A DNA stretch of 51,540 nucleotides, taken from sequence record ON711395.1; one strand, written 5' to 3'. Under the pieces are notes generated by a model. The model did not search any database. It was not told where the DNA came from and was given only the letters and a program-made list of their open reading frames with translations. Within the stretch, counting starts at the first letter, position 1; each line of letters starts with the position of its first letter. This document shows, one piece after another, positions 9,371 to 13,881 of the stretch. The translations under genes and the position numbers were made by a program. Origin of the DNA: Escherichia phage brachmannus.

Positions 9371-9761
9371 TTTAATGTTGGCGGCAAGAAAGGCGCTGGC
9401 GGCTGAATATGAATCACGATTTAAGATAGCCTATGAAAACGTTGATTTTGTGCCGCCTGGAGATGGTTCTATGTGGTTAAAATTTAACTACATGGAAGCA
9501 GACACGGATCGCATATCTCTTGATAGAAAATGTGTTTCTTATATCGGTTTGGTTCAGGTTGGAATTGTCATTCCTCCTGGCGGTGGCACTGATAACGCTC
9601 GTTTACTGGCTAAAGAGATTGCGAGATTTTTCTATGATGGTAGAATGTTTGAAACTGGCTATATTAGCGAGGGAGCAAACGTCCACGCATTACTAAAAAG
9701 TGAAACAGGTTGGTTCTTGCCGATCCGTTTCAGTGTTAGGCTTGACACAAAGGAGGAATAA
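9360..9761 (+). CDS. putative tail terminator protein
   Basis: 133 aa immediately upstream of major tail protein. Confidence 0.35.
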   Translation: MHYDLMLAARKALAAEYESRFKIAYENVDFVPPGDGSMWLKFNYMEADTDRISLDRKCVSYIGLVQVGIVIPPGGGTDNARLLAKEIARFFYDGRMFETGYISEGANVHALLKSETGWFLPIRFSVRLDTKEE

Positions 9762-9763
9762 TC

Positions 9764-10426
9764 ATGCACTTGCCTAATGGTTCTCAAATTTTCATCGGCG
9801 TTAATATGGGTGAGCCAATTAGCGCTACTCAAATCACCAATGCTGATAATCCTGTTTTTACAGCTGCAAACACTCAAAGCATCAAAAAAGGCGCTTATGT
9901 TCTTATTGAAACATCTTCTTGGGGCAAACTTGTTAGTCGAGTGCTTCGAGTTAAGGAAGTATCAGATAATGTAAGTGTTACTCTTGAAGGTGTTAGCACT
10001 AAAGATACAAACGTATTTCCAGAAGGACAGAACACAGCAACGTTCCGAGAAGTGAAATCTTGGGTGGAGGTTCCTTGCGTACAGGATCTTGCGCAGGACG
10101 GCGGCGAGCAACAGTATTACACTTATCAGTGTTTGGCTGATGACCAGGAACAGCAGTTGCCGACATACAAGAGCGCCGTTTCTCTTACCTATACTTTCGC
10201 GCATGAATATGATAATCCGATTTATCCGATCTTGCGCAAGGCTGAGGAATCCGGCGACGTAACCGCTTTGCGTATGTACGTGCCGAAAGCTAAAGAGATG
10301 CGTTGCTGGGCTGGCGTATTGTCTTTTAATGACATTCCGCAAACCACTATGAACGAAATGGAAACTGTTTCCCTTTCCGTATCTCTGAAAGGTCGATTCA
10401 CGTTCTTACCTTCTGACGTTAAGTAA
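9764..10426 (+). CDS. major tail protein
   Basis: 220 aa, RBS AAGGAGG, followed by strong intrinsic terminator, directly upstream of chaperone and tape measure genes. Confidence 0.6.
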   Translation: MHLPNGSQIFIGVNMGEPISATQITNADNPVFTAANTQSIKKGAYVLIETSSWGKLVSRVLRVKEVSDNVSVTLEGVSTKDTNVFPEGQNTATFREVKSWVEVPCVQDLAQDGGEQQYYTYQCLADDQEQQLPTYKSAVSLTYTFAHEYDNPIYPILRKAEESGDVTALRMYVPKAKEMRCWAGVLSFNDIPQTTMNEMETVSLSVSLKGRFTFLPSDVK

Positions 10427-10428
10427 AA

Positions 10429-10453
10429 CAAGGGGCGTTGCGCCCCTTTTTTC
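10429..10453 (+). terminator. intrinsic terminator after major tail gene
   Basis: GGGGCG-TTG-CGCCCC stem then T6. Confidence 0.75.
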
Positions 10454-10493
10454 ATTCCTGTAAAATCAATCTATCAAATAAATTAATTCCACT

Positions 10494-10510
10494 TTTAACA
10501 AAAAGTGCTA
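10494..10510 (-). promoter_or_regulatory. conserved motif copy in inverted orientation abutting RBS of tail chaperone gene
   Basis: plus strand reads TTTTAACAAAAAGTGCTATAAGGAG. Confidence 0.5.
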
Positions 10511-10525
10511 TAAGGAGATCTTGAG

Positions 10526-10843
10526 ATGGCAAAGATGAAACTAACGTTAGGCCCACTGCCTGATTTTAAACTGCCTGTTTCTTTCGTGCTTCCAAATGGT
10601 GATGAGCAAGTTATTGTTTTCACTGTGCGCCACAAGAAGGCAAGCGAGATTCACGAACGATACACGGCAGAAAAGCCGATGAGCGACGTAGAAATGATCA
10701 CCTTCCTTGCTTCCGGTTGGGATCTGGAAGATGAATTTAACGAGGAAAACGTTGCTAAATTGCTGGATTATTACCCTTCTGCGTCATTATCGCTGACTGG
10801 TCATTATATGAAAGCACTTGCGGGGCAGCGGGTAAAAAACTAA
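10526..10843 (+). CDS. tail assembly chaperone (lambda G-like)
   Basis: 105 aa, between major tail protein and tape measure, ends 3 nt after slippery A_AAA_AAC. Confidence 0.7.
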   Translation: MAKMKLTLGPLPDFKLPVSFVLPNGDEQVIVFTVRHKKASEIHERYTAEKPMSDVEMITFLASGWDLEDEFNEENVAKLLDYYPSASLSLTGHYMKALAGQRVKN

Positions 10844-11160
10844 AGCGGGCGGTTTACCTGTTTTACCTCAAGCCGCCAACTGACGCACAATTAGAGGCCG
10901 TCGGCCTATCCCGTTCAGACTACGAAGGGGAGGAGCCGCCGGAGGTAATTTTTGATGAATCAATGTTTCAATCTTGGGATCTGTTTTGCGCAATGCAGAC
11001 GCAATGGAGATCTACTAGCGGCAGCGTGTATGGGTTCGACTATAACGTTTTGCCCATGCTTTTTGACATTTACAAGATTGATGATCGTGAGATGGCGCTA
11101 AATGATTTGCGCATCATGGAACAAAAGGCGCTAGAAATGATTCATTCAAACAAAACATAA
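10526..11160 (+). CDS. tail assembly chaperone frameshift product (lambda GT-like), -1 shift at about 10834-10840
   Basis: -1 frame is open from before 10801 through 11160 with no stop; heptamer A_AAA_AAC in zero frame; downstream ORF 10963-11160 lies in that -1 frame. Confidence 0.6.
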
Positions 11161-11181
11161 GCGCCGCGAGGCGCTTTTTTA
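11158..11181 (+). terminator. hairpin + T-run between chaperone and tape measure genes
   Basis: GCGCC-GCGA-GGCGC stem then T6. Confidence 0.5.
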
Positions 11182-11199
11182 ATATCTGGAGGTTTTAAA

Positions 11200-13881
11200 A
11201 TGGCTGAAAAATACGCTGGCCTAACGCTAGGCGTTGACGTGTCGCAGGTCAACAATGCTGTTAAATCATTGCAGCAATTCAAGAAGGCAAACGACGACGC
11301 AAAAAAAAGCGTTAATGAATTTGTTGATTCTGAGGTTGTGGCCCGACAGCAAGCAAAACAGCTTGCCGAAGAACTGGCGCGCCAGAAAGCAGAATTTAAG
11401 AAAATCCAGGAGTCAATTGATCCCACCGCATCAAAGATGGATAAGCTGAGAAAGGCAGCGACACAGCTTGATGCGCTATGGAAAAAGGGCGTTGTTCCTG
11501 ATCAGACTTTTTTTGAGCTTGGGGCAATTCTTGAGACGCAGCAAAACAAGCTGATCGCAACAAAAAAAGCGATGACAGAGGAAGGCCGCGCGGCGCTTGA
11601 GGAATCAAAGAACAAGGCGCGTGCAGCGGAAGAGGCTAAAAAATTCGTCCAGGCTTTGCGTGAGCAGGAAGAAGCAGCAGGAAAAAGCAAGTCTGAATTG
11701 CTGGAAATGAAAGCGGCACAGCTTGGAGTTAGCCAGGAGGCAGCACCTTACATCGCAAGGCTGAAAGAGCAGGAAAAGCAGATCCAGAAACTTGGGATTT
11801 CTACAGGCCAATACAAACAAGCAATGGCGCAATTGCCAATGCAGATCACAGACGTGGTGACTTCACTTGCTTCTGGTATGCCCGTTTGGTTGGTCGCAGT
11901 CCAGCAGGGTGGACAGATCAAGGATTCTTTTGGTGGTGCATCCAATGCTTTAAAGGCGTTGCTATCTTTCCTGAATCCAGTAAACGTGGCGTTTGGCTTG
12001 CTTTCCGGCACGATGGCAATTGCTGCATATAATTCCTACAAAGCACAGACAGAGCTTGAGGCAATTAAAAAAACCGTTCAGGAAACAACTGGCTTGAGTG
12101 GTGAGTTTGCCGAAAAGATTGCTATAGGAATCCAGGAGCTTTCCGACAAGACAGGCGAAAGCGCCGAAGATCTGGCAAAGGCTTACATAACAACGAAAGA
12201 CGGCGCGAGCGAGGCGATTAAAAAACTGGTTGACGTTGGAATGACTTATGATGACGCAAAAAAGAAAGTCAACGAGTACAAGGGCGCGTCTAGCTTTGTC
12301 AGCTTGAATAACGAAATTGCAAACCACAAAAACAAAGTCCTTGAGTTGGGTGAGTCGTGGTATGAAGTTTTGAAAGCTAAGCGTGATTACGCTTCCCCGT
12401 CCGGCGGCCTGTTAGGTAAAGAGCTTGGCTATGTTAATCCTATGCTTAAGTTTGCACTTAACACTTATGAAGACATTGGAAAGGTCGTAAAAGATGCGAA
12501 TAAGGACATGGCGGAACGAGCGGAGCGAATCGACAAAGAAAACCTGTCATTAAACAGAGTGCGAGCGGCGCAAGAGGCTTTAAACAAAGCCATTGAGGAT
12601 CAGAAGGGCGTGGCGCGTTCTGCTGATGAAGAACTGAAAAAGCGCGCGGCTGAAAACGTGGAGTTCAGACGCAAAGAGCTTGAGGAGATCAAGAAGCAGG
12701 AGCAGAAAAAGAAAGAGGCTAAAGGGGGAATAGTTCGCGGCCCTACTGAGCAGCTTGATAAAGAGTTGTACGTTTTAAAAGCGCAACTGGAAACTCTTAA
12801 AGAGCATCGCACTGTTAACGATGTTATTTCTCGCCAGCGTAAATCTTTATGGAGCATCGAAAAGCAGATCGAGATCCTGGAGAATGCGCAGAGCAAGCGG
12901 AAATTGACGGGAGCGGAACAGGCGCTACTAAACGAGCAAAAAGCCGTTCTTGAAATGGCAAGGCAAAAAGCTGAGCTAGGGGATCAGATTGTTTTGCAGG
13001 AGCGCAAAAACAAGCTGGAGCAAGATAGTCTTAAGTTTATCCGTGAAACGGAGGCGGCTATTGATGCGATTGGCCTTAAGCAACTTGGCTACACTGAAAA
13101 GCAGATCGAGCGTGAGCTAGAGTTACGCAAGCTGCGCACCGACTACGAGGCGCAAGGCGGAAGCGTTAGCGACGAAGTTTTTCAGCAAATGGAGACGAAA
13201 CTTAAGCTGTATTACCAGGCGCAAGACGAGGCGCAAGGAAACTGGTTAGCCGGAGCAAAGAACGCATGGGAGCTATTCGCGGAAGATGCAAACAATGCCT
13301 ATGGCAATGTTCAGCAGATTGCAAGCGAGGCGTTAAACGGCCTTACAAACCAATTAGCGAATTTTATCGCTACTGGCAAGGCAAACTTTAAAGACTTCTC
13401 GACTGCTATCATCAAAATGATTATTCAGATGATCACGAAAATGGTTGTCTTTAATGCGTTATCTGGCCTGATGGGTGGTCAAACCTGGACGATGGGGAGC
13501 TTGCTTAAGAATATTGGCGGATTTGCTGGCGGTGGATATACTGGCGACGGCGGGAAGTATGAGCCAGCCGGAATTGTTCATAAGGGTGAATTTGTCATGA
13601 CGAAGGAGGCAACGCAGCGTATCGGAGTAGGCAACTTGTACCGCATGATGCGAGGCTATGCTAACGGCGGCGTTGTTGGTGGTTCCGGCTATACTGGCGG
13701 TGGCACTGTCACTGGTGGAGCACCTCAATTTAACATCGGTGGGATTGATGTTAGCATCAATAACGGCAATGATCCGAAGGGTATCGAAACTGGTGTTAAG
13801 ATGATCTTTACTGATATGATTAGACGTTCCTGTATGCAGGGCGGGGAGGTTTACGAATTTGTTATGAGCAAGCGAGGTTGA
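11200..13881 (+). CDS. tail tape measure protein
   Basis: 893 aa, long coiled-coil, Gly-rich C-terminal region, canonical position. Confidence 0.9.
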   Translation: MAEKYAGLTLGVDVSQVNNAVKSLQQFKKANDDAKKSVNEFVDSEVVARQQAKQLAEELARQKAEFKKIQESIDPTASKMDKLRKAATQLDALWKKGVVPDQTFFELGAILETQQNKLIATKKAMTEEGRAALEESKNKARAAEEAKKFVQALREQEEAAGKSKSELLEMKAAQLGVSQEAAPYIARLKEQEKQIQKLGISTGQYKQAMAQLPMQITDVVTSLASGMPVWLVAVQQGGQIKDSFGGASNALKALLSFLNPVNVAFGLLSGTMAIAAYNSYKAQTELEAIKKTVQETTGLSGEFAEKIAIGIQELSDKTGESAEDLAKAYITTKDGASEAIKKLVDVGMTYDDAKKKVNEYKGASSFVSLNNEIANHKNKVLELGESWYEVLKAKRDYASPSGGLLGKELGYVNPMLKFALNTYEDIGKVVKDANKDMAERAERIDKENLSLNRVRAAQEALNKAIEDQKGVARSADEELKKRAAENVEFRRKELEEIKKQEQKKKEAKGGIVRGPTEQLDKELYVLKAQLETLKEHRTVNDVISRQRKSLWSIEKQIEILENAQSKRKLTGAEQALLNEQKAVLEMARQKAELGDQIVLQERKNKLEQDSLKFIRETEAAIDAIGLKQLGYTEKQIERELELRKLRTDYEAQGGSVSDEVFQQMETKLKLYYQAQDEAQGNWLAGAKNAWELFAEDANNAYGNVQQIASEALNGLTNQLANFIATGKANFKDFSTAIIKMIIQMITKMVVFNALSGLMGGQTWTMGSLLKNIGGFAGGGYTGDGGKYEPAGIVHKGEFVMTKEATQRIGVGNLYRMMRGYANGGVVGGSGYTGGGTVTGGAPQFNIGGIDVSINNGNDPKGIETGVKMIFTDMIRRSCMQGGEVYEFVMSKRG

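What the first reader, a model, noticed from the sequence alone, without database searches (positions are those of the whole stretch)
10826..10965. Programmed -1 frameshift in the tail assembly chaperone pair at A_AAA_AAC
The G-like ORF (10526-10843) ends right after the heptamer A AAA AAC (about 10834-10840). The -1 frame is open from before 10801 through the ORF at 10963-11160, giving a GT-like fusion that ends just before the tape measure gene. This matches the conserved chaperone frameshift of long-tailed phages, and the track shows the two ORFs as unrelated, so the second would otherwise be mis-started at 10963.
Basis: partly seen in the sequence, partly recalled or inferred. Interest (0 to 1): 0.5.

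Follow-up and report, generated by a model that had tools for sequence, protein, structure and literature searches.

The report
Tail chaperone G/GT -1 frameshift site
This T1-like coliphage makes its two tail assembly chaperones from one start codon by a programmed -1 ribosomal slip at A_AAA_AAC; the site is real and strongly conserved, but it is the ordinary frameshift of long-tailed phages, already annotated in a phage of the same subfamily.

Summary
ORF 10526-10843 (105 aa, Pfam Phage_TAC_4) ends GTA AAA AAC TAA, which puts A_AAA_AAC (10834-10840) in slip phase directly before the stop. The -1 frame is open from 10759 to 11160 and has no ATG, GTG or TTG before 10963.

The 41 codons between the heptamer and ATG 10963 are coding in the -1 frame. 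They match DUF1799 and PHROG profiles, one of which spans both halves. They are 50-71% identical across Drexlerviridae subfamilies and vary mainly at third codon positions.

In 92 of 96 distinct relatives T lies at -1 to G. Sixty-six keep A_AAA_AAC followed at once by a stop, including phages of other hosts at about 30% identity. In HK578 the -1 frame opens exactly at the heptamer. Synonymous variation collapses only at codons 103-106.

Best explanation: a low-level -1 programmed frameshift gives G (11.9 kDa) and GT (24.3 kDa), as in lambda. A downstream hairpin is present but unproven. The junction may read ..VKN-LKR.. or ..VKK-LKR...

Citrobacter phage Stevie, in the same subfamily, already carries the joined CDS. 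The five Warwickvirus records I checked do not. This is a known feature and a useful annotation fix, of low novelty.

The parts
10512..10517 (+). Shine-Dalgarno sequence AAGGAG of the G/GT gene, 8 nt upstream of ATG 10526
   Evidence: Read directly from the sequence.
10526..10843 (+). Gene G: the short tail assembly (tape measure) chaperone, 105 aa, 11.9 kDa. It is the product of standard decoding.
   Evidence: ORF. Pfam PF08748 Phage_TAC_4, E 5e-31, full length. phrog_17368 positions 1-107. Mass.
10834..10840 (+). Slippery heptamer A_AAA_AAC: third base of Val GTA, Lys AAA, Asn AAC. This is the inferred -1 shift site.
   Evidence: Phase read. Only in-phase heptamer in the overlap. Conserved in 66 of 96 distinct relatives. 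Synonymous obs/exp 0.00, 0.25 and 0.00 at codons 103-105.
10841..10843 (+). 0-frame stop TAA directly after the heptamer. It ends G and may slow the ribosome at the shift site (inferred).
   Evidence: A stop sits at this alignment position in all 92 relatives with the canonical arrangement. The overlapping -1-frame Leu codon is CTA or CTG, synonymous obs/exp 0.11.
10840..11160 (+). T segment in the -1 frame, 106 codons plus stop. With G it forms GT = join(10526..10840,10840..11160), 211 aa, 24.3 kDa.
   Evidence: Frame open. PF08809 DUF1799 at residues 23-101 of this segment. phrog_17368 positions 109-211 and phrog_680. Junction alignment with R102, K104 and L106 invariant.
10843..10962 (+). 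Forty conserved -1-frame codons with no possible start codon of their own. They can only be reached by frameshifting.
   Evidence: No ATG/GTG/TTG in this frame before 10963. Codon-position diversity 0.26/0.22/0.55. Residues 106-146 are 50-71% identical to distant Drexlerviridae.
10963..10965 (+). ATG used as the start of 'ORF 2' in public annotations. Here it is read as internal Met147 of GT.
   Evidence: ATG in 64 of 75 relatives and Thr (ACN) in 11. The nearest GGAGG (10941-10945) lies 17 nt upstream, too far for a normal SD.
10848..10877 (+). Candidate stimulatory hairpin: GGCGGUUU (10848-55) pairs with AAGCCGCC (10870-77). Eight bp, 14-nt loop, 7-nt spacer after the heptamer. Its status is inconclusive.
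   Evidence: MFE -13.2 kcal/mol but z -0.10. A longer version of -15 to -19 kcal/mol, z -2 to -4.6, occurs in Tempevirinae and Tunavirinae and is absent in Braunvirinae and Rogunavirinae. 76.6% of cells paired against 43-51% in slid controls. RNAalifold finds no consensus structure.
9764..10426 (+). Major tail (tube) protein gene, the upstream neighbour. It is the presumed binding partner of the T domain, by analogy with lambda gpV.
   Evidence: PF08813 Phage_tail_3, E 2e-62.
11200..13881 (+). Tape measure protein gene, the downstream neighbour. It is the presumed binding partner of the G domain.
   Evidence: PF06791 TMP_2 and PF09718 Tape_meas_lam_C.

Best explanation
The window is a T1-like coliphage (Drexlerviridae, Tempevirinae, Warwickvirus). 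Its two tail assembly chaperones are made from one initiation site at ATG 10526.

Most ribosomes read GTA AAA AAC and terminate at TAA 10841, giving G (105 aa). A small fraction slip one base back on A_AAA_AAC (10834-10840). They then read CUA at 10840-42 as Leu and continue in the -1 frame to TAA 11158-60, giving GT (211 aa).

By analogy with lambda gpG/gpGT, the shared G part coats the tape measure protein. The T part recruits the major tail protein so that the tube polymerises around the tape measure. Neither protein ends up in the virion.

**Shown here:** the sequence anatomy; coding in the -1 frame upstream of any start codon; homology of both halves to chaperone families; conservation of the shift site and of the frame arrangement.

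**Inferred:** that the shift is ribosomal; that its level is low (the heptamer is intrinsically weak in E. coli); that the adjacent stop codon and/or the hairpin at 10848-10877 raise it; and the protein functions.
For: 1. **Anatomy.**
2. **Family matches.** G is Phage_TAC_4 and the T segment is DUF1799, with the match starting 19 residues upstream of ATG 10963. One PHROG profile of 213 positions is matched by G at 1-107 and by the T segment at 109-211.
3. **No conventional route.** There is no start codon in the -1 frame between 10759 and 10963. Yet these codons show third-position-dominated variation and 50-71% amino-acid identity across subfamilies.
4. **Breadth.** tblastn found G and T as two frame-separated pieces side by side in all 59 sampled rows that cover both halves, out of 1145 matching phage records.
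5. **Frame and motif conservation.** 92 of 96 distinct relatives have T at -1 with a 100-112 aa extension. 66 have A_AAA_AAC followed at once by a stop. 25 have A_AAA_G or A_AAG at the same Lys codon.
6. **Shift window pinned.** In HK578 the -1 frame opens at the first base of the heptamer, so the shift window is exactly 7 nt.
7. **Synonymous constraint.** The synonymous-site obs/exp sliding-window minimum (0.23) falls at codon 105, against 1.1-1.4 in the flanks. AAC is never AAT, although AAT/TTA would be silent in both frames.
8. **Precedent for the heptamer.** A_AAA_AAC is under-represented in E. coli genes. It shifts at 0.16% without a stimulator and 0.74% with the IS3 pseudoknot, and it is the proven IS1 site (PMC4066793).
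9. **Prior annotation.** The homologous gene pair in Citrobacter phage Stevie is annotated as a joined CDS and described as a conserved translational frameshift (PMC4319613). The same is reported for phage Solomon (PMC8407766).
10. **Lambda paradigm.** The G:GT ratio of 30:1 and the protein functions are summarised in PMC5009743.
Against: - There is no protein-level evidence for this phage or any close relative in the data I could reach.
- The heptamer is among the weak ones in E. coli.
- No downstream structure is statistically supported in this phage (z -0.10 and -1.13), and none is conserved family-wide.
- No conserved upstream SD-like stimulator was found. Synonymous sites of codons 97-102 vary freely.
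- About a quarter of relatives lack a tandem-slippery heptamer, so the exact slip mode may differ from the classical model.
- ATG 10963 is conserved in 64 of 75 relatives, so some independent initiation cannot be excluded.
Confidence: 0.9

Rival explanations
1. The event is still -1 ribosomal frameshifting at this spot, but by a single tRNA-Lys on the tetramer A_AAA (10834-10837) or by a P-site slip, not by tandem Lys/Asn slippage. The ribosome would then read AAA (10837-39) as Lys, giving the junction ..QRVKK-LKR.. that the first reader wrote.
For: - K104 is invariant in the alignment.
- 25 of 92 relatives have only A_AAA_G or A_AAG at this codon and no tandem heptamer, yet keep the same frame arrangement.
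- A_AAG, and to a lesser extent A_AAA, are shift-prone tetramers in E. coli (PMC4066793).
- The single E. coli tRNA-Lys is the classic shifty tRNA (PMC5009743).
Against: Codon 105 is AAC in all 66 heptamer-bearing relatives and never AAT. It shows zero synonymous variation. That is hard to explain if the second codon plays no part. The alternative is that Asn is needed as the C-terminus of G and C as the first base of Leu106.
Confidence: 0.3
2. No recoding takes place. The second ORF is translated on its own from ATG 10963 as a 65-aa (7.8 kDa) protein, as most public records annotate it.
For: ATG 10963 exists and is kept in 64 of 75 Drexlerviridae. Several GenBank and RefSeq records annotate such an ORF.
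Against: - Forty conserved, coding-pattern codons lie upstream with no start codon.
- DUF1799 and PHROG homology extends upstream to the heptamer.
- The ATG is Thr in Webervirus and absent in HK578 and others.
- The nearest GGAGG is 17 nt upstream.
- Annotated starts differ from record to record.
Confidence: 0.04
3. The frame change happens at the RNA level. RNA polymerase slips on the A6 run and adds or drops an A in a fraction of transcripts, and ribosomes then read GT without slipping.
For: A homopolymer run sits at the site. Four relatives in IMG/VR carry A5 instead of A6, which shows the run is length-unstable at least in sequencing.
Against: - From general knowledge, productive transcriptional slippage in bacteria needs runs of about 8-9 or more identical bases. 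Six is too short.
- Relatives with GCA AAG GTC or CAA AAG CCT have runs of only 3-4 A and keep the same arrangement.
- The A5 contigs that carry other indels nearby look like homopolymer sequencing errors. L054 shows no second frame break, so for it this is a weaker guess.
Confidence: 0.03

Closest known systems
Bacteriophage lambda gpG/gpGT tail assembly chaperones (-1 PRF at G_GGA_AAG; Levin 1993, Xu 2004/2013/2014, as summarised in PMC5009743)
   Same: The gene pair sits between the major tail and tape measure genes. The second ORF is in the -1 frame with no start of its own. The heptamer lies near the end of G. A short and a long product share the N-terminal domain. The surrounding tail module is lambda-like, with TMP_2, Tape_meas_lam_C, M-like and L-like proteins.
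   Different: The chaperone families differ: Phage_TAC_4 plus DUF1799 here. I did not compare the proteins with lambda G/T directly. The heptamer A_AAA_AAC is much weaker in E. coli than G_GGA_AAG-type sites. Here the 0-frame stop follows the heptamer with no gap.
Citrobacter phage Stevie CPT_Stevie15/16 (KM236241; Tempevirinae, Tlsvirus) and other T1-like phages with the join annotated (for example Solomon MT701592)
   Same: These are homologous genes, about 72-75% identical. Stevie has the identical GTA AAA AAC TAA at the end of G. A joined CDS 10144..10775 is deposited. [quoted passage not shown]
   Different: They belong to a different genus. The window's own genus is annotated without the join in all five records checked. 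In Stevie the inner CUG/CAG part of the hairpin is intact. In the window it is lost through Q115L.
IS1 InsAB' transposase frameshift (A_AAA_AAC in E. coli)
   Same: The heptamer and the host translation machinery are the same. It is a proven low-level -1 frameshift with no established stimulator (PMC4066793).
   Different: The proteins and purpose are unrelated. The immediate 3' context differs. I did not check the IS1 sequence here.
E. coli dnaX and IS3/IS911 -1 PRF (A_AAA_AAG with upstream SD and downstream stem-loop or pseudoknot)
   Same: Slippage centres on tRNA-Lys on an A-rich heptamer in E. coli.
   Different: Those sites end in G and shift at 4-39% with stimulators, against 0.2-0.7% for the C-ending heptamer. 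They rely on well-defined stimulators, which are not demonstrable here.

Membership tests
Long-tailed phage tail assembly chaperone G/GT programmed -1 frameshift (lambda paradigm) | Gene pair located between the major tail (tube) protein gene and the tape measure protein gene | tested here: met
   Tube 9764-10426 (PF08813), G 10526-10843, T to 11160, TMP 11200-13881 (PF06791, PF09718).
Long-tailed phage tail assembly chaperone G/GT programmed -1 frameshift (lambda paradigm) | The upstream ORF belongs to a tail assembly chaperone family | tested here: met
   PF08748 Phage_TAC_4, E 5.2e-31, profile positions 1-124 of 124.
Long-tailed phage tail assembly chaperone G/GT programmed -1 frameshift (lambda paradigm) | The downstream reading frame is at -1, overlaps the end of G, and its conserved N-terminal part has no start codon | tested here: met
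   -1 frame open from 10759. First ATG/GTG/TTG at 10963. Forty conserved codons lie upstream of it.
Long-tailed phage tail assembly chaperone G/GT programmed -1 frameshift (lambda paradigm) | A slippery sequence in the correct phase inside the overlap | tested here: met
   A_AAA_AAC at 10834-10840 is the only in-phase X_XXY_YYZ in the overlap.
Long-tailed phage tail assembly chaperone G/GT programmed -1 frameshift (lambda paradigm) | Frame arrangement and shift site conserved in relatives despite sequence divergence | tested here: met
   92 of 96 distinct relatives. The heptamer plus stop persists down to about 30% amino-acid identity. Synonymous constraint is localised to codons 103-106.
Long-tailed phage tail assembly chaperone G/GT programmed -1 frameshift (lambda paradigm) | A GT fusion protein is actually made, at a low fixed ratio to G, and is required for tail assembly | not testable with these tools
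   This needs a western blot, mass spectrometry and genetics. No proteomic evidence was found in the papers searched.
Canonical -1 PRF cassette (heptamer + 5-9 nt spacer + stimulatory stem-loop or pseudoknot) | A stable, conserved RNA structure at the right distance 3' of the heptamer | tested here: inconclusive
   An 8-bp hairpin lies 7 nt downstream at -13.2 kcal/mol, but z is -0.10. It is stronger in many relatives (z to -4.6) and absent in Braunvirinae and Rogunavirinae. There are no independent compensatory changes, because each pair has one partner fixed by the protein. RNAalifold finds no consensus and there is no Rfam hit.
dnaX/IS911-type -1 PRF with upstream Shine-Dalgarno-like stimulator | A conserved SD-like element about 10-14 nt 5' of the shift site | tested here: not met
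   Only a weak GGGG at 10822-25. Synonymous sites of codons 97-102 vary at 1.0-1.5 of expectation, and relatives differ there.

The most novel reading that the evidence does not exclude
In this chaperone family the main stimulator of the weak A_AAA_AAC heptamer may be the 0-frame stop codon placed directly after it, rather than an RNA structure. The stop is conserved in all 92 relatives with the canonical arrangement. On this reading the slip happens while the stop waits in the A site. The G:GT ratio would then be set by competition with release factor, and it could vary with host physiology. The strict C at heptamer position 7, never U although U would be silent in both frames, would be part of this signal.
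Probability: 0.25. Interest if true: 0.35.

Novelty: already known. Interest (0 to 1): 0.17.

Why it matters
The value is mainly in annotation. In this genus (Warwickvirus) and many other Drexlerviridae records, the long chaperone is split, mis-started or missing. The correct feature is join(10526..10840,10840..11160).

Two small points may interest the recoding field. First, this E. coli phage lineage keeps a heptamer that is intrinsically weak in E. coli, always abutted by the stop codon. Second, the two slip models predict different junction residues (Asn or Lys), so a single mass-spectrometry experiment could tell them apart.

Tail assembly chaperones of these phages were also recently reported as triggers of bacterial Avs17 sensors, which bind the N-terminal core shared by both isoforms (bioRxiv 10.64898/2026.01.04.697583). 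Correct isoform models therefore have some practical use.

Tried and rejected
- **Downstream structure.** I folded 10834-10900 and 10841-10960; neither is more stable than shuffled sequence. I ran RNAalifold on 55 aligned relatives and got no consensus. I counted pairs for the hairpin: it beats the slid controls, but the structure was derived from this sequence and the only two-sided change affecting more than a few sequences comes from one clade. A proven stimulator is therefore not claimed.
- **Rfam.** The scan of 10400-11300 gave only two sub-threshold hits, both on the upstream terminator.
- **Upstream SD-like stimulator.** Rejected because synonymous sites there vary freely.
- **Large protein database search.** Searching with the fused GT returned only three T-like ORFs and no fused or G proteins, so it was uninformative.
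- **Other protein resources.** The PDB sequence search gave no relative and NCBIfam gave no family.
- **Xu et al. 2004 and 2014.** These papers are not held in the library. What I say about lambda rests on the 2016 review.
- **Outlier loci.** Five loci first looked like exceptions. One (L076) has a normal junction plus an indel inside G. Four have A5 instead of A6. Three of these (L021, L053, L057) carry further frame breaks or irregularities nearby and look like homopolymer errors. L054 shows none, so I treat it the same way only provisionally.

Full report
**What the window is.** The region 9700-11400 is 99.1% identical to Escherichia phage vB_EcoD_Poky and 97-99% identical to about 50 other coliphages. 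These are classified as Drexlerviridae, Tempevirinae, Warwickvirus. The window is therefore a T1-like siphovirus.

The genes around the finding form a lambda-type tail module:
- tail tube protein, 9764-10426 (PF08813);
- a 105-aa ORF, 10526-10843 (PF08748 Phage_TAC_4, E 5e-31);
- a 65-aa ORF, 10963-11160;
- tape measure protein, 11200-13881 (PF06791, PF09718);
- an M-like minor tail protein (PF05939) and an L-like protein (PF05100).

**Checking the observation.** The end of the first ORF reads CGG GTA AAA AAC TAA. The heptamer A_AAA_AAC is therefore at 10834-10840 in the X_XXY_YYZ phase, and the stop at 10841-10843 follows directly.

The -1 frame is open from 10759 to the TAA at 11158-11160. 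The ORF listing shows that its first ATG/GTG/TTG is the ATG at 10963. No other in-phase slippery heptamer lies in the 82-nt overlap.

The heptamer as a bare word is not enriched: 24 copies in the window against 21.7 expected. A single in-phase heptamer in such an overlap would occur by chance in roughly one case in ten, by my estimate. The case therefore rests on comparative evidence.

**The -1 frame is coding upstream of any start codon.**
- Translated from the heptamer onward, the -1 frame (106 aa) matches Pfam DUF1799 from residue 23. ATG 10963 is residue 42.
- It matches phrog_680 from residue 9.
- It matches phrog_17368 at profile positions 109-211. G matches positions 1-107 of the same 213-position profile. 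Proteins spanning both halves therefore already exist in the phage protein collections that PHROGs was built from.
- Conceptual GT fusions from 13 phages of five Drexlerviridae subfamilies and four unrelated genera align without a break across the junction. R102, K104 and L106 are invariant.
- In 75 Drexlerviridae, nucleotide diversity by codon position over residues 107-146 (10843-10962) is 0.26/0.22/0.55. This is the same pattern as in the body of G (0.31/0.23/0.60) and of T (0.28/0.16/0.47).
- Amino-acid identity of residues 106-146 to distant subfamilies is 50-71%, as high as in the rest of the protein.
- The ATG at 10963 is Thr in 11 of 75 sequences and has no counterpart in HK578, ChibiTotoro or VarioGold.
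- Its nearest GGAGG lies 17 nt upstream. G and the tape measure gene each have an SD 7-8 nt from their ATG.

**Conservation of the arrangement and of the site.** A tblastn search with the fused protein found 1145 phage records. In all 59 of the 60 sampled rows that cover both halves, G and T appear as two adjacent pieces in different frames.

I collected 20 GenBank loci and 80 IMG/VR loci, which give 96 distinct G-T sequences.

| Group | Number of distinct sequences |
|---|---|
| T at -1 to G with an extension of 100-112 aa | 92 |
| of these: A_AAA_AAC directly followed by TAA or TGA | 66 |
| of these: A_AAA_G plus Y-rich codon, then TAA (Webervirus) | 17 |
| of these: A_AAG_GTC then TAA (Rogunavirinae) | 6 |
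| of these: A_AAG_CNY then TAA | 2 |
| A5 run instead of A6 (three with further indels nearby, one, L054, without) | 4 |

The 66 include T1 itself, Braunvirinae, Tlsvirus, Dhillonvirus HK578, a Serratia phage and a Variovorax phage at about 30% amino-acid identity. The remaining canonical sequence (L076) has the normal AAA AAC TAA junction plus an indel inside G.

In HK578 a -1-frame TGA immediately precedes the heptamer. The only place where a ribosome can change frame is therefore those seven bases.

A synonymous-site analysis shows that constraint is confined to the site. Observed-over-expected synonymous differences were:

| Codon | Synonymous obs/exp |
|---|---|
| Val103 (always GTA) | 0.00 |
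| Lys104 | 0.25 |
| Asn105 (always AAC) | 0.00 |
| Leu106 (CTA or CTG, overlapping the stop) | 0.11 |
| Flanking codons | 1.1-1.4 |

AAC is never AAT, although AAT with TTA would be silent in both frames.

**Mechanism.** The best-supported reading is a programmed -1 ribosomal frameshift. It yields G (105 aa, 11.9 kDa) by standard decoding and GT (211 aa, 24.3 kDa) from the ribosomes that slip.

In E. coli, A_AAA_AAC is a weak site. It shifts at 0.163% without a stimulator, 0.189% with the IS911 stimulator and 0.739% with the IS3 pseudoknot. A_AAA_AAG reaches 4-39% under the same conditions. A_AAA_AAC is nevertheless under-represented in E. coli genes in this phase (z -6.7). It is also the proven shift site of IS1, for which no stimulator is known (PMC4066793).

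A low level fits the lambda paradigm, where G:GT is about 30:1 and the ratio matters (PMC5009743).

What raises the level above background here is not settled. I considered three candidate stimulators.

- **A hairpin.** An 8-bp hairpin (10848-55 with 10870-77, 14-nt loop) starts 7 nt after the heptamer, which is the right distance.
  - It is no more stable than shuffled sequence in this phage (z -0.10; z -1.13 for 120 nt).
  - Many Tempevirinae and Tunavirinae have a longer version, GGGCGGUUU..CUG/CAG..AAACCGCCC, at -15 to -19 kcal/mol with z -2 to -4.6.
  - Braunvirinae and Rogunavirinae have none, although Braunvirinae keep the heptamer.
  - Both arms are also conserved protein motifs (R-A-V and K-P-P), so each pair has one partner fixed by the code.
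  - Pair counts beat the slid controls (76.6% against 43-51%) but give no independent compensatory change.
  - RNAalifold finds no family-wide consensus and Rfam has no match.
  - The window phage has lost the inner CUG/CAG stem through a Gln-to-Leu change at codon 115 (10867-69).
- **An upstream SD-like element.** None is conserved.
- **The adjacent stop codon.** The stop is the one feature besides the Lys codon that is invariant in position. It may act as a slow-to-decode A-site codon. This is inference. The review notes such effects of slow A-site codons, and of a nearby stop in pea enation mosaic virus.

**Junction peptide.** Tandem P/A-site slippage would incorporate Asn at AAC and then Leu, giving ..GQRVKN-LKRAV...

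The 25 relatives with only A_AAA_G or A_AAG argue that tRNA-Lys is the essential slipping tRNA. The absolute conservation of AAC in the other 66 argues that the second codon also matters. Mass spectrometry can decide between the two.

**Rivals.** Independent initiation at ATG 10963 as the only route is contradicted by the coding signal and homology upstream of it. Transcriptional slippage is unlikely on a run of six A and impossible in the relatives with AAAG. The remaining live alternative is the single-tRNA variant of the same frameshift.

**Comparison with what is known.** This is the conserved G/GT chaperone frameshift of long-tailed phages.
- For T1-like phages it is already on record. 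Citrobacter phage Stevie (Tlsvirus, same subfamily) has the identical GTA AAA AAC TAA.
- Stevie carries a deposited joined CDS 10144..10775 beside the short form. [quoted passage not shown]
- The Solomon announcement says the same.
- The five Warwickvirus records I opened (Poky, SECphi27 RefSeq, JLBYU26, tunzivis, PeterMerian) annotate either two unrelated ORFs or G alone.
- Across the family the second ORF is given at least six different starts.

**Verdict.** Confidence that a programmed -1 frameshift at 10834-10840 produces GT is about 0.9. The feature is already known and of low general interest. There is one modest open question about the role of the abutting stop codon and the strict C at position 7.

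Noticed in passing
window 10430-10455 and 11159-11181 (+): The G-T unit is bracketed by two intrinsic-terminator-like hairpins with T tracts. One lies between the major tail gene and G, the other between T and the tape measure gene. Five terminator-like sites were found in the region against 1.8 expected in shuffles. They may grade expression from tube protein to chaperones to tape measure. Relatives annotate terminators at the same places (Stevie, G29-2).
   Followed up: partly
L021, L053, L054, L057 (IMG/VR), positions about 1000-1012 of each locus: Four relatives read GTAAAAACTAA (A5 instead of A6) at the slip site, which puts T at +1 to G. L021, L053 and L057 also carry other indels or irregularities nearby, so homopolymer sequencing error is the likely cause for them. 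L054 shows no second frame break, so this is less certain there. A real length polymorphism of the run is not excluded.
   Followed up: partly
window 10867-10869: Codon 115 of GT is CTC (Leu) here, where most Tempevirinae and Tunavirinae have CAG (Gln). The change removes the inner CUG/CAG stem of the hairpin seen downstream of the slip site in relatives. What remains is an 8-bp stem with a 14-nt loop.
   Followed up: partly
window 10838-10842: Heptamer position 7 is always C (AAC, never AAT) in 66 diverse relatives. AAT followed by TAA would keep Asn in frame 0 and Leu (TTA) in frame -1. In E. coli reporters the C and U forms differ little (0.163% against 0.106% without a stimulator). The reason for the constraint is unexplained.
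   Followed up: partly
window 10941-10957: The GGAGG inside T (10941-10945, encoding part of P-P-E-V) lies 9 nt upstream of an out-of-frame ATG at 10955. That ATG belongs to the frame-0 ORF 10952-11101, 49 aa and Cys-rich, which I presume is spurious. The same GGAGG is 17 nt from ATG 10963.
   Followed up: no
window 10419-10503 (-): There is a sub-threshold Rfam match to the Salmonella sRNA family STnc50 (33.8 bits against a gathering score of 55, E 9e-4). It overlaps the terminator downstream of the major tail gene and probably reflects the terminator hairpin only.
   Followed up: no
L004 and other Webervirus loci; L013 and other Rogunavirinae loci: These Klebsiella and E. coli phage lineages replaced A_AAA_AAC by GCA AAA GTY TAA or GCA AAG GTC TAA. 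The Lys codon and the stop position are kept but tandem slippage is no longer possible. This suggests a switch to single-tRNA A_AAR slippage within one homologous family.
   Followed up: partly
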